A stretch of 64,000 nucleotides of DNA from Hormiphora californensis. Its lineage: Eukaryota; Animalia; Ctenophora. The position numbers and the translations under genes were made by a program. Shown piece after piece: positions 11,701 through 58,000 of this stretch (position 1 is its first letter; the number at the start of each line of letters is the position of its first letter). The stretch spans positions 124,001 through 188,000 of the forward strand of contig CM035353.1 of assembly GCA_020137815.1 (NCBI GenBank), in the 5' to 3' direction. Under the pieces are notes generated by a model, which worked only from the letters and a program-made list of their open reading frames with translations, searched no databases and was not told where the DNA came from.

Positions 11701-14700
11701 CGCTAAATTTGATTTTCTGTTCGGTCACATTATATAGATTATTAGGTAATGTAGGCGATTGTGGACATTGGCCAGACTTAATAAGAAGGTCCTACGTAGC
11801 TCAGCAGCTTGCTTAGGATATTTATGGTTAAAATTAGATAATTTGCTGCGACAGGATAACATAATTCTGGAACTTATTGGAATAATTGTTCTGAACCACG
11901 CTATAGGATACAGTCGTCTTATAAACGTTTCTGGTGCAGTCTACTACTATAACATGCCCCGTCATATTCATTGTAACACCACACCCGGGATAGGTTATTT
12001 CTCACCTCTCTCTCTCTCTCTCTACCGCGGGGCGTTTAACCTAGTACTATCTGAGTCTGCCGCTACCTACCTGTAGGAGCAATTCCCTCTTGTGGGTTTT
12101 GATAACCCTCTGCATAATTTACCTTTCTTCTCCTCTCTCTTTCTCTCCTTTTTCCTCGTCACCCCTCTTCCCCCCCCCCCGGGGGGGGGGGGGGCCCCCC
12201 CTTGGGAGGGAGGGAGGGACCATCTTTCATAGCGAAGGAGACCCCGGAAGTAAGAGAAAGAAGGAGAGAGAGAGGGAGAGAGAAAGAAGGAGAAAGAAAG
12301 AAGGAGAAAAAGTGAGAGGATGAGAGAGAGAAAGATAGCGAAGGGGAGAAAGAGATAGACAGATTATATAGAGAGGAGAAAGAGAGGGAAAGGATTGGAG
12401 ACAGAGAGTTTTAACTTGAATATGCTAAGTTGGACGAAGAAGATTGAAGAAACGGTCAGAAATACTGGCGTTTGATGGGAAAATATGTAGAAAGAAAGTT
12501 AGAAAAGAGAAAAGATTGGGGGATGATAGAGAGATGAACACGTGATTCATCTGTGTGATATTGATAAGCAGGAGGAAAGGAAAAGAGGATGGTGTTAAAA
12601 TTGAACACTGAGACTATCGCACTCATTGTCAGTTTTCATCTCTCTCTCTCTCTCTCTCTCTCTCTGCTCTCTCTCCTCTCTCTCTCCTCTTCCTCTTCTC
12701 TCTCTCTTTTCAGCTTTCTCTCTTTTTCCTCTCTCTCCTCCACTCTCTCTTCTTCTCTCTCTCTCCTCTCCTCTCCTTCATCTCCTCTCTCTCTCTCGTC
12801 ATCCTCTCTCTCTCCTCTCTCTCTCCTCTGCCTGCGTCTCTCTCGCTCCTCTCCTCTACTCTCAAATGCCGCCTGGTCTCCTCTCTCCTCCTCTGCCCCC
12901 TCTCTCTCTGTTCCTCCTCTCGCTGCGGGCCTATCTCTGAACCGCTCTCTCGTCCTCTCTCTCGTCTCTCTCTCCTCTCTCCCTCTCTCAGAAAGCTCCG
13001 CCCAACATGCATGCGATCAGATCACGTCACTTTATATGCACGTACTCTCATAAATGTGTGTATGTATGATAGAAGGTGAAAGAGCATCAATTTGATGCCA
13101 TTGAAACCCATTCTGGATCCCAGAGTCCAACCCCTAATGGCCTATATAATATCAAAAATTAAATCTGGTGTGTTGTCATTCTTGTTGTATCTTTGGTCCC
13201 TATGTAGCCTAAGTATCTCAATGTGATGACTTCATTCTTGGATTTTGACACCTACCCAGGCAGTTTGTCAACACGGCCTACTAATTAGTTTGTCACCTGT
13301 ATGTTTTACCATCATCTGTAGTAGTAGACCTCACAAAGGAGCCATTAGGCTCTGGGCTAACATTGAATATTTCTAGAGAAAACAGTGCAGATTCAAATGA
13401 GTTGACACGAACGGGGTGGTGCACTTCGTTGCGAAGTCACAGGGCACAATGTAATAATTTCATTACCAAGGGTTATACAGTATCGTGCGTGAATAAAAAT
13501 TCGTATTCGAGAATGCGGGAACGGAGAAACAACAATACAGTCGGACCCCGATTTACCGGGCAAAACCCTTCTAGCATCCCGGTAAATCGGGGGGGGGGGG
13601 GGGGGGGGGGGTGCCCGACTGTATATTATAACTTACCCCACAACTACTACTGCTACGTCTCTTCTTTTTGTGCGGGAAGGTAAACGAGACCCCTCTCCCT
13701 CCAGTTTGCTGTAATGATAGGTCCCGTTGTGGGGATAGTGTGCTTCCGTTCTACACCCTGATCCTCTGCCTCGCCAAGCATCCAATAGCACCCCTGAGAG
13801 AGAGGGGGATGTTAGCACGCACCCCTGTGTGGGAGAGAGAGGAGAATGTTAGGGATCCAATAGCACCCCTGTGTGGGAGAGAGAGGAGAATGTTAGGGAT
13901 CCAATAGCACCCCTGTGGGAGAGGAGAATGTTAGCAACCCTGTGTGGAAGAGAGAGGGGATCATGTTAGGGATCATAATAGCACCCCTGTGTGGGAGAGA
14001 GGAGAATGTTAGGGATCCAATAGCACCCCTGTGTGGGAGAGAGGAGAATGTTAGGGATCCAATAGCACCCCTGTGGGAGAGAGGGGAGAATGTTAGGGAT
14101 CCAATAGCACCCCTGTGGGAGAGGAGAATGTTAGGGATCCAATAGCACCCCTGTGTGGGAGGAGGGAGAATGTTAGGGATCCAATAGCACCCCTGTGGGA
14201 GAGGGAGAATGTTAGGGATCCAATAGCACCCCTGTGGGAGAGGAGAATGTTAGGGATCCAATAGCACCCCTGTGTGGGAGAGGGAGAGAATGTTGGGATC
14301 CAATAGCACCCCTGTGGGAGAGAGGAGAATGTTAGGGATCCAATAGCACCCCTGTGTGGGAGAGAGAGGAGAATGTTAGGGATCCAATAGCACCCCTGTG
14401 TGGGAGAGAGAGGAGAATGTTAGGGATCCAATAGCACCCCTGTGTGGGAGAGAGAGGAGAATGTTAGGGATCCAATAGCACCCCTGTGGAAGAGAGAGAG
14501 AGAGGGGGGATGTTAGGGATCCAATAGCACCCCTGTGGGAGAGGGGATCATGTTAGGGATCCAATAGCACCCCTGTGGGAGGGGAGAATGTTAGGGATCC
14601 AATAGCACCCCTGTGTGAGAGAGAGAGAGAGGAGAATGTTAGGGATCCAATAGCACCCCTGTGTGGGAGAGAGAGGAGAATGTTAGGGATCCAATAGCAC

Positions 14701-55000: not shown

Positions 55001-58000
55001 CCCTCCCCCCCTCATCCCCCCTACATTGCAGTAATACCGCCTCCCCCCCTCATCCCCCCTACATTGCAGTAATACCCCCTCCCCCCTCATCCCCCCTACA
55101 TTGCAGTAATACCGCCTCCCCCCCTCATCCCCCCTACATTGCAGTAATACCCCCCCCCCCCCTCATCCTCCCTACATTGCAGTAATACCCCCCCCCCCCC
55201 TCATCCCCCTACATTGCAGTAAACAATTGATAACCCCTTCATCTCCGCTAGTAAACAGGAGATGCTGAAACAGATGACGAGTGATGATGATACGGTGCAG
55301 ACTCTCTTTAAGAAGCAAGATGAACAGAGGATTGTCCAGGAGGAAAGACTAAATGAGAGGATTCTCAGCCTTACCAGTCGGGTACGGGTTAACAAGTTTT
55401 ATACCCATTTAGAACAAGTACTTTGGGCAAATTGTGTAATACCATAAACTTGGATTGGGGGCCAGGGTTAGAACATAATAACTCAGGTGAGGGGCCAGTG
55501 TTAGAACATAATAACTCAGGTTAGGGGCCAGTGTTAGAACATAATAACTCAGGTTAGGGGCCAGGGTTAGAACATAATAACTCACTTCCCGGCAGGTGGA
55601 GACAGCAGAAGATACAGTGGATAAAAAGAAGGGAGAGATAGAGCTACTAACTCATCAGATCCAGGAACAGAATCATGTTAGTGCTCAGCTGGATGAGGAA
55701 ACCTGGGGGCGTCTCCCAGCTTCCTCTTCTCTCGTATATCTCACCTTATATCTCTTATCTCCTATCGCTCACCTCGTATCTCAAATCTAGCTAGCTCACT
55801 CTCCCATTTCTTTACCAAATCGTCAGAGCTATACACACACAGTTCTTGTTGAGTCTCCCACCCCTTACTCAACAACACAGTCCACCTATATTGTCCCTCT
55901 GTTGTAGGTCCCCCCCCCCCCACAGTTCATCTGTATTATTGTCCTCTCTGTTGTAGATGATAACGAAGCTAAATGATAAGCTAGAGGGAAGTACCAGAAC
56001 CGGTGCAGAAGCTCAACAGAAACTAATTGAGAAGGAGCGTGGTACCGAAATTATGGAACAGGTATTAGATAAGATTTTTCTTATAACTATTGTCATAATT
56101 AATACTGATGGTACGTCTGTTGATTTGTCAATATTTCCCGTATTTGGGTGTTTCAACATTTCGTTTCCATTGCTTTTTGTTTGATTTCCAATAACTTAAT
56201 TTTGATTACATGATACCCTGCCCTAGTCTGTATCGGAGGTGCGGCGAGAGCTGAGTGATATGCGTGTCGAATTAGAGTGCTCCGAGAACGAGGCGACACG
56301 CTGTAAAGAGGTTTGTTGTTTTTCAGTTTATAAACAGCCTATATCTTGTAACTCATTACGTCATATTGTATCACAGCTAACATCACCATAATTAACATAA
56401 TATCTTCTATTTAAGCTGCTGCAAAGTTTGGAAGTATTTACGGGGACGGAGGTGAGGCATCTTCCCGCCAACCTCTCTCTCTATGACTCGCTCGATAAAC
56501 TACGTGATTTTGTATTGGACAGCAACCAAGTTATAGGTTGGTTACACACCAGATATATAGGGGCAGGTAGCTAGCCTATTGGGGATGAAGTATTACAGGC
56601 CACAGACATGTGAAAGAAATTCAAAGAAGGGACCTCTGTGCCAATGGGTCTCCATTTCCGCTATTGATCTGTCAAGGTGTCGCCGCGATGTGCCCACAAC
56701 TAGGTACATGTGGTGGAGGGTGGACATCTGTACCTCTCTCTCCCCTCTCATTTTCATTTATATTTCCTCCCCTCCGCCCCCGCAGGTGACAGCAGGAGAA
56801 AGTTGGAGACCATGAGTTCTGAAACGAAGGTGAACACGGACGAAACAAAACAGCTCAAACAGGTCCGTGTACAGGGTGTTCATGTGGGATCTTTACAAGC
56901 GTTCATCCCACATGAACACCCTGTATGTAGTGTAATAGTGTATACCTAGACTGTGTATGTGTTATATATAAAGTATATGCAATGTCCTCTCTCTCTCTCT
57001 CTCTTTCTCCTTCTGTATCTCTCTCTCCCTCTCTCTCTCACACACTAACACTTCATCACTTTATCCCTAAACTTGACCACCATGTCCCCCTCGCTGGTCA
57101 ATTTAGTTGACTTTATTTTGAAGAATGTAGTAACTGTATTCTTTTAGATCTTGTTGATTTTCTCATAACGGCATATATAAAAAACTAAGGGACAGGCCCC
57201 AGGGGGGTCATTTTGACCTTATTTCAAACGCGCATATCTCCGGTTCCTGATGCGATAGATACTTGAAATTAGGAGGTTAGGAAGATCATGCCAAGTTCTT
57301 TATTACCTCCAAATTTCAAGTCTTTATCTCATCAGGAACCGGAGAGATAAGATTCTGAGAACTGATTGCCGCACTGCACGTGGGGAAGATCTGTAGAGAG
57401 CGCGCGCACGGCCATTACTAGTTTGTAAGTCGCGCGCGCATGGAACTATCTAATTGTTAGCATTTACCGTAATATAAAGTGTGGTTAACAATTTTAATTT
57501 GAGGTTTTCTGAAATTAGCTCATGTTCATGTTATTATTAAGTTGGTTTAGCGATAATCAATGGCCGAGTATTGAGTTATGACGAGCAATAACCCTTGTAC
57601 TCCCTTCAGCGTTTGGAGATAGCTGAAAACGAAAATGAAGCTCTTGCCAGCCAGCTGACAGTTTCAAATGCCCACCTCGACTCATCACACAAGGAAATAA
57701 GACAACTGAGAGGTAATAAAGTCGTTTTAAAAATTAGCAGCAAAAGTGCTGTGACCAGGATTCGAACCTGGGTTATTGCGGCCACAACGCAATGTCCTAA
57801 CCACTAGACGATCACAGCTACAGGCCGCTTACGCGACGGAAATTTCGCATTTCTAATCAGTATATTCTTGTGTTGCAGAAACGGTGCTGAAAAATGAAAA
57901 GAGTAAACGTATAATTGAACGACGGTTGAGATCTGTCGAAACAGCGTTAAAGGAAATGGAGAACTTTATTCAGGTAAAGAGCTGCACTAGCAGGAGTTAG

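What the first reader, a model, noticed from the sequence alone, without database searches (positions are those of the whole stretch)
13780..55584. Intronic tandem arrays are repeatedly amplified copies of the real 3' splice site
In four unrelated genes an intronic tandem repeat is anchored on the acceptor. FoxJ2/3 (13780-14760, ~22x branch point + pyrimidine tract + AG + 14 nt of exon), LIM (44980-45420, ~10x acceptor + up to 17 nt of exon) and the coiled-coil gene (54764-55222, ~13x ...TTGCAG|TAA) carry the acceptor itself. CYP (29804-32773, ~49x branch-like CCTAAC) ends just before the AG. Two- to four-copy early stages occur at 6195-6262, 33749-33860, 55459-55584 and 55889-55956. Each time the coding exon follows the last copy, so the spliceosome must skip many near-identical decoys or use them in sequence. 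Inference: a mutational process that nucleates repeats at 3' splice sites, plus unusual acceptor choice (strict exon definition, or regulated unproductive splicing). I do not know of this being described as a genome-wide feature.
Basis: partly seen in the sequence, partly recalled or inferred. Interest (0 to 1): 0.88.

Follow-up and report, generated by a model that had tools for sequence, protein, structure and literature searches.

The report
Comb jelly splice-junction "mirage" minisatellites
In four genes of a comb jelly, short pieces from the end of an intron, often with the first bases of the next exon, are copied head to tail up to 49 times inside the intron; the cell likely splices only to the last copy, making this a likely harmless repeat of a kind already known from lancelets as a "mirage".

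Summary
The arrays are real and three of the four big ones carry acceptor copies, but the kind is known: amphioxus 'mirage' minisatellites (PMC3087553, PMC3902484), with human CBS 844ins68 and F7 IVS7 as spliced analogues. This scan noted it before on other DNA (62 findings, at least 10 genomes, none naming a ctenophore). The window is a ctenophore. Corrections: the coiled-coil gene's in-frame acceptor is at 55251, 32 nt past the array; the CYP arrays and the 33-mer stop short of the AG; a donor is duplicated too (23153-23205). Every scored decoy gives a stop or frameshift, and orthologues align without gaps across the LIM and CYP junctions. Contigs of a second sample hold the LIM array but skip two acceptor duplications, so these likely vary between individuals. 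In 51 introns, acceptor ends were duplicated 8 times and donor ends 0 (p=0.008; 0.02-0.15 with hand-added cases); other nulls gave P=0.002-0.5, in a window picked for the pattern. No RNA was obtained, so acceptor use is inferred. Likely neutral duplication filtered by selection. Low interest; the acceptor bias deserves a genome-wide test.

The parts
13780..14775 (-). Forkhead (FoxJ2/3-like) intron: about 23 decoy units of 31-49 nt (CTAAC, pyrimidine tract, CAG, mostly 14 exon nt); real acceptor AG at 13795-13794, exon starts 13793
   Evidence: Pfam Forkhead on exon 17578-17802; the J2/3 label rests on recalled motifs, not on a call
6195..6262 (-). Two 47-nt copies holding the putative GAG acceptor plus 8 exon nt of a 3' exon of the same forkhead gene (exon starts 6202)
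   Evidence: acceptor weak (score 3.6), chosen by frame
29804..32773 (+). CYP intron 29713-32783: 49 units of 60-62 nt with CCTAAC, ending 10 nt before the real AG (32782-32783); units hold a CAG in poor context
   Evidence: junction FQMR|FNS ungapped against P0002; Pfam p450
33740..33856 (+). Last CYP intron: 56 nt x 2.1, ending 4 nt before the acceptor, no AG copy
44980..45420 (-). LIM gene intron 45519-44997: nine decoy TAG acceptors plus 7-17 exon nt in units of 34-54 nt; real exon starts 44996
   Evidence: M. leidyi orthologue P0001 102 of 122 identical, 0 gaps; array pieces in contigs of X1 and X5
54764..55222 (+). Coiled-coil gene intron 54664-55251: 13 TTGCAG|TAA units of 31-40 nt
55218..55257 (+). 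Extra 32-nt diverged unit between two AGTAAACA repeats that carries the in-frame acceptor (AG 55250-55251); skipped in one X5 contig
   Evidence: (joint 55217-55250)
55458..55584 (+). 33 nt x 3.8, built on a dispersed GGGTTAGAACAT element end, stopping 11 nt before the acceptor at 55595
   Evidence: motif at 6 places in the window
55889..55956 (+). Two copies of the acceptor ...CTCTGTTGTAG 49 nt apart; replaced by a single different acceptor region in one X5 contig
   Evidence: (joint 55879-55951)
23153..23205 (+). Donor-side mirage in a Sushi-domain gene: 23 nt x 2.3 spanning exon end and GTGAGT donor at 23168

Best explanation
These are 'mirage' minisatellites: tandem copies of a 30-60 nt piece of an intron's 3' end, often with a few exon bases, that likely arise by ordinary slippage or unequal exchange and likely persist because splicing would still use the last copy and leave the mRNA unchanged. 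Shown: unit anatomy, position, loss of frame at every scored decoy, ungapped orthologues, presence in short contigs of two samples. Inferred: (1) a first duplication at short direct repeats (GTGCTA is shared by the forkhead branch region and exon start; AGTAAACA flanks the 32-nt unit); (2) expansion and homogenisation of inner units with divergent end units; (3) choice of the last copy through pairing with the downstream exon and donor (exon definition), any decoy use being removed by nonsense-mediated decay; (4) selection removes duplications where an upstream copy wins, so survivors all look alike; (5) pyrimidine-rich, slippage-prone intron ends and short introns (median 214 nt) explain part or all of the acceptor excess.
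For: Decoy outcomes: forkhead 23 of 23 scored decoys stop or frameshift, coiled-coil 13 of 13, LIM 9 of 9 reach a stop. Orthologues ungapped: LIM 102/122, CYP 159/172. Variation: one X5 contig skips 55218-55249 and has 320 letters before 55250 although the window allele repeats a 31-mer within 79 letters upstream of 55217; another X5 contig lacks 55880-55950; one organism B contig joins 45000 to 45504 across the LIM array (weak, side 26). Donor-side case present. Same anatomy, haplotype variation and normal splicing reported for amphioxus mirages (PMC3087553 section 16; PMC3902484 passage); distal acceptor strongly favoured in CBS 844ins68 (PMC2630376 passage).
Against: Acceptor use was not observed, only inferred. 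The real acceptor is not always the best by a window-trained matrix: all 13 coiled-coil decoys score above the 55251 site, and the first LIM decoy lies 121 nt from the donor, a normal intron length here, so silence of the decoys is not guaranteed. The acceptor-over-donor excess (8 vs 0 of 51; 6 vs 0 of 11 events with units of 30 nt or more) is not predicted by position-blind duplication plus symmetric survival. Forkhead and CYP arrays were not checked in reads, and the forkhead region has frame errors.
Confidence: 0.7

Rival explanations
1. A splicing- or transcription-linked mutational process seeds duplications specifically at 3' splice sites (branch point to AG), so the acceptor excess is mutational and genome-wide. 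Compatible with the arrays being functionally neutral.
For: 8 of 51 acceptors vs 0 of 51 donors in a paired gapped test, p=0.008; 6 of 11 long-unit events end within 30 nt of an acceptor, 2.0 expected, P=0.002; two acceptor duplications differ in X5, so new ones keep appearing or vanishing.
Against: P=0.15 with a 15-nt cut-off and all 26 events; P=0.5 with a null that includes the arrays themselves; p=0.02-0.15 once missed donor-side cases are added by hand; cut-offs were chosen after seeing the data; the window was picked for the pattern; donor-side mirages exist here and in amphioxus.
Confidence: 0.18
2. The decoys are functional: regulated unproductive splicing, recursive splicing through the copies, or capture of the spliced leader by unpaired acceptors.
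For: [quoted passage not shown]
Against: No AG|GT in the forkhead, LIM or coiled-coil big arrays; unrelated host genes; variation between individuals and likely absence in organism B (weak) argue against constraint; mirages elsewhere do not disturb splicing.
Confidence: 0.07
3. The arrays are assembly artefacts of a noisy long-read consensus.
For: The 6.6-18 kb stretch has frame errors in forkhead exons and ragged homopolymers, so unit lengths there may be partly error.
Against: LIM array pieces match contigs of X1 with 0 differences at depth 65-228 against 52.8 for the unique flank, and of X5, another sample and study (45211-45276, 0 differences); units carry patterned variants.
Confidence: 0.05

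Closest known systems
Amphioxus 'mirage' minisatellites (Adh3, globins BflGb6 and BflGb9, troponin C, PGBD5). Seen: PMC3087553 section 16 whole and passages; PMC3902484 one passage; Canestro 2002 PMC117041 not held, known only through these
   Same: Tandem units spanning an intron-exon boundary, 10-160 bp, at 3' or 5' boundaries, variable between haplotypes, end units left out of homogenisation, many units keeping AG/GT signals, seen in several genes of one genome.
   Different: Here a ctenophore; up to 24 boundary-spanning and 49 boundary-adjacent copies against 3-6 in BflGb6; three loci stop short of the AG; normal splicing was tested by RT-PCR there and is only inferred here.
Human CBS 844ins68 (PMC2630376, passages)
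   Same: Duplication of an intron/exon junction at the exon's 5' edge; the distal site is strongly favoured and mRNA is normal.
   Different: One extra copy, not an array; mammalian long-intron context.
Human F7 IVS7 37-bp VNTR (PMC1557585, abstract and outline only)
   Same: Minisatellite whose end unit spans an exon-intron boundary, leaving silent identical pseudo-sites; matches the donor case at 23153-23205.
   Different: Donor side; first copy used.

Membership tests
Mirage minisatellites (as described in PMC3087553) | Tandem unit spans an exon-intron boundary | tested here: met
   Forkhead (14 exon nt), LIM (up to 17), coiled-coil (3-6), 6195-6262 (8), 23153-23205 (donor):
Mirage minisatellites (as described in PMC3087553) | Same feature for CYP 29804-32773, 33740-33856 and 55458-55584 | tested here: not met
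   They end 10, 4 and 11 nt before the AG: acceptor-adjacent minisatellites that work like mirages but are not filed as members
Mirage minisatellites (as described in PMC3087553) | Unit length in the reported 10-160 bp range | tested here: met
   23-62 nt
Mirage minisatellites (as described in PMC3087553) | Length differs between haplotypes | tested here: met
   One X5 contig each skips 55218-55249 and 55880-55950; copy number itself cannot be read from contigs
Mirage minisatellites (as described in PMC3087553) | Both 3' and 5' boundaries can be duplicated | tested here: met
   Donor case 23153-23205
Mirage minisatellites (as described in PMC3087553) | End units diverge from homogenised inner units | tested here: met
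   By inspection of unit listings: first and last units differ in forkhead, coiled-coil and LIM arrays; no tree built
Mirage minisatellites (as described in PMC3087553) | Regular splicing undisturbed | tested here: inconclusive
   Only indirect: open frames and ungapped orthologues
Mirage minisatellites (as described in PMC3087553) | Somatic length instability | not testable with these tools
   Needs single-molecule data from several tissues
Recursive-splicing ratchet points (definition recalled) | AG directly followed by GT donor in the decoys | tested here: not met
   0 of 23 forkhead, 0 of 13 coiled-coil scored decoys; LIM decoys read AG|AC; only the 33-mers and 55907 have AG|GT

The most novel reading that the evidence does not exclude
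In this ctenophore a genome-wide, acceptor-specific duplication process keeps copying 3' splice sites so fast that individuals use physically different acceptor sequences for the same exon (as at 55219 vs 55251), and a short-intron, early-branching animal resolves tens of intact decoys by exon definition; the genome would be a natural assay of acceptor choice and of acceptor turnover without change of the protein.
Probability: 0.15. Interest if true: 0.6.

Novelty: new member of a known kind. Interest (0 to 1): 0.25.

Why it matters
As it stands it extends a known repeat type to ctenophores: three paper searches naming ctenophores listed 1, 2 and 1 papers, none on this by title or abstract start, and the passages seen of one ctenophore genome paper (PMC8527503) report 13% tandem repeats and many intronic indels without mentioning splice-site arrays; its supplements were not looked at. 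It would matter more only if a genome-wide acceptor bias or regulated decoy use were shown.

Tried and rejected
No whole genome is held, so the genome-wide test could not be run; no earlier notes on this genome. No RNA holder listed among 13 runs; X13, guessed as RNA, laid 2 records on the LIM stretch, neither a LIM transcript: no verdict on expression or acceptor use. Metagenome runs X7 and X8 matched mainly dispersed repeats and the tRNA. Organism B (X11) has no cover over 45012-45455, counted only through the one joining contig. Homologue search with coiled-coil exon 55253-55384: 0 of 4 candidates, so that junction has no orthologue check. Metagenome scan with a CYP exon: 0 of 408 stretches confirmed. 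Representative-protein search for the forkhead exon never ran. PDB search confirms forkhead but not the subfamily (best hits FoxM1). First enrichment test rejected as a fair null because arrays fill their own introns; reported all the same. Rejected: recursive splicing for the big arrays (no AG|GT); in-frame protein repeats (LIM units of 36, 48, 54 nt are multiples of 3 but each path meets a stop). Left out of the 51-intron set: introns whose ends I could not place (forkhead 17587-17390, 13297-9558 region, first CYP intron, gene at 42.5 kb, 5' UTR introns).
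Full report
Setting. The window is eukaryotic. A LIM exon hits one protein, a Mnemiopsis leidyi LIM protein, at 87% identity, so it is a ctenophore. No whole genome is held. I annotated seven genes by hand into 51 GT-AG introns, checked by script; median length 214 nt. 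Pfam confirms Forkhead, LIM, p450, Sushi, DSPc and LicD domains on 8 of 14 exons scanned. The coiled-coil gene reads 1096 aa over 29 exons without a stop, CYP 513 aa without an internal stop.

The arrays. Forkhead (minus strand): units of CTAAC, pyrimidines, CAG and mostly 14 exon bases, 24 anchors including the real one; LIM: 10 TAG|ACCG including the real one; coiled-coil: 13 TTGCAGTAA; CYP: 49 CCTAACAT. Real introns gave 30 TRF events against 0-4 in each of 20 shuffles.

Corrections. In the coiled-coil gene the last TTGCAG (55219) is out of frame: the protein stops after 409 aa, against 1096 aa with the CTAG at 55251. The 32 nt between them are a diverged unit flanked by AGTAAACA repeats. 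The CYP 60-mers, the 56-nt pair and the 33-mers end 10, 4 and 11 nt before the AG, so 3 of 8 listed loci do not copy the acceptor; the 33-mer is built on a motif found at 6 places in the window. A donor is duplicated at 23153-23205. Forkhead exons next to the big array have frame errors and the 6202 acceptor is a weak GAG, so that model is less certain.

Which copy is used. No RNA was obtained. Indirectly: all 23 scored forkhead decoys and all 13 scored coiled-coil decoys give a stop or frameshift, all 9 LIM decoys reach a stop, and spliced LIM and CYP align to orthologues with no gap (102 of 122 and 159 of 172 identical). Against easy silence: all 13 coiled-coil decoys outscore the 55251 site on a matrix from 43 other introns, and the first LIM decoy sits 121 nt from the donor. 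The real forkhead and CYP acceptors outscore their decoys. The big arrays have no AG|GT, which argues against sequential use.

Real and variable. On the LIM locus run X1, which may be the source sample, breaks into 53-74 letter pieces inside the array with 0 differences and depth 65-228 against 52.8 for the flank; X5, another sample and study, holds an array piece with 0 differences. One contig of organism B joins 45000 to 45504 (depth 18, side 26, letters between not known), a weak hint that the array is absent there. A second X5 contig replaces 55880-55950 by 14 other letters, leaving one acceptor. Each is a single contig; 21 further joints were not shown; direction of change is unknown.

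Enrichment. Four tests on the 51 introns. (a) Ungapped 16-mers: 6 acceptors, 1 donor, 5.6 expected, P=0.5, but the null contains the arrays. (b) TRF events on collapsed introns: 4 and 2 of 26 within 15 nt, 2.1 expected, P=0.15; 6 and 2 within 30 nt, P=0.043; for units of 30 nt or more 6 and 0 of 11, P=0.002 (cut-offs chosen afterwards). (c) Paired gapped test: 8 acceptors, 0 donors, p=0.008; it missed the 23153 donor case and the coiled-coil array, and adding hand cases gives p=0.02-0.15. (d) Interior controls: 11 of 242 queries in 33 introns without an acceptor event, but 13% per intron when all 41 are used. The excess is suggestive only; the window was chosen for it.

Mechanism. Most likely a first short duplication at direct repeats (GTGCTA is shared by the forkhead branch region and exon start), then minisatellite expansion. 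A duplication over an acceptor is neutral if the downstream copy is used and purged if the upstream one is, so survivors always show the exon after the last copy. Pairing of the last copy with the downstream donor (exon definition; general concept in PMC6142364 passages) and NMD of stray products are inferred, not shown.

What is known. Amphioxus 'mirages' are the same thing: tandem copies of intron-exon boundaries, 10-160 bp, 5' or 3', variable between haplotypes, not disturbing splicing (PMC3087553 section 16 read whole; PMC3902484 passage; the original Adh3 paper is not held). CBS 844ins68 shows the distal site winning (PMC2630376 passages); F7 IVS7 is the donor analogue (PMC1557585 abstract). 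PMC2812944 was seen in outline only. I reached the mirage papers, before the scan's notes; those notes report the same in worms, urchins, molluscs, a placozoan and vertebrates, on both acceptor and donor sides, 62 findings in at least 10 genomes, none naming a ctenophore; they are unchecked and are not counted as support. Paper searches with ctenophore terms listed nothing on it.

Verdict. Real, a new member of a known kind, probably neutral. Interest 0.25. What remains open is whether the acceptor excess is mutational and how cleanly a short-intron animal ignores strong decoys.

Noticed in passing
window 6600-18400: Stretch looks like low-accuracy consensus: ragged homopolymers, and forkhead exons 3 and 4 (about 17395-17323, 13793-13637) have frame errors and a lost acceptor; could also be a damaged allele.
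   Followed up: partly
window 1081-1142: 14-nt x 4.8 array starting at a GT donor of a likely 5' UTR intron (1081-1167) upstream of a single-exon LicD-family gene (1262-2062, Pfam); a second donor-anchored array.
   Followed up: partly
window 27084-27451: Degenerate 12-13 nt array beginning 6 nt after the CYP donor at 27077.
   Followed up: no
window 9560-9600 and 6205-6260 (minus): Two different intron ends of the forkhead gene share similar CACTAACCC...CTTGTCCCC sequence; shared origin or consensus convergence not tested.
   Followed up: no
window 28211, 38357, 55465, 55564, 58111, 62512: Dispersed GGGTTAGAACAT element end; at 58111 and 55564 it lies just upstream of an acceptor; very high contig depth near 58100 suggests a high-copy mobile element.
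   Followed up: partly
window 57746-57818 (minus): tRNA-His(GTG) gene inside a 166-nt intron of the coiled-coil gene, on the opposite strand.
   Followed up: no
window 52026-53009: 328-codon ORF inside coiled-coil intron 9 that resembles (recalled, no Pfam hit) the 3' end of a non-LTR retroelement.
   Followed up: partly
window 22152-22326: Third exon of the Sushi-domain gene carries stops and frame breaks while its neighbours are open.
   Followed up: no
window 19222-19303: Interstitial (CCTAAC)n telomere-like run inside an apparent mobile element.
   Followed up: no
window 7260-9311 and 35960-36840, 43930-44750: Large inverted-repeat elements inside or between genes, one with AGCGCTTT-rich arms in the last long forkhead intron.
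   Followed up: no
window 45491 in run X5: 12-letter insertion near the LIM donor that resembles the adjacent sequence: another small polymorphic duplication, on the donor side.
   Followed up: no
window 63620-63658: Weak extra acceptor-side duplication (CA-rich) in the last coiled-coil intron, picked up by the paired test.
   Followed up: no
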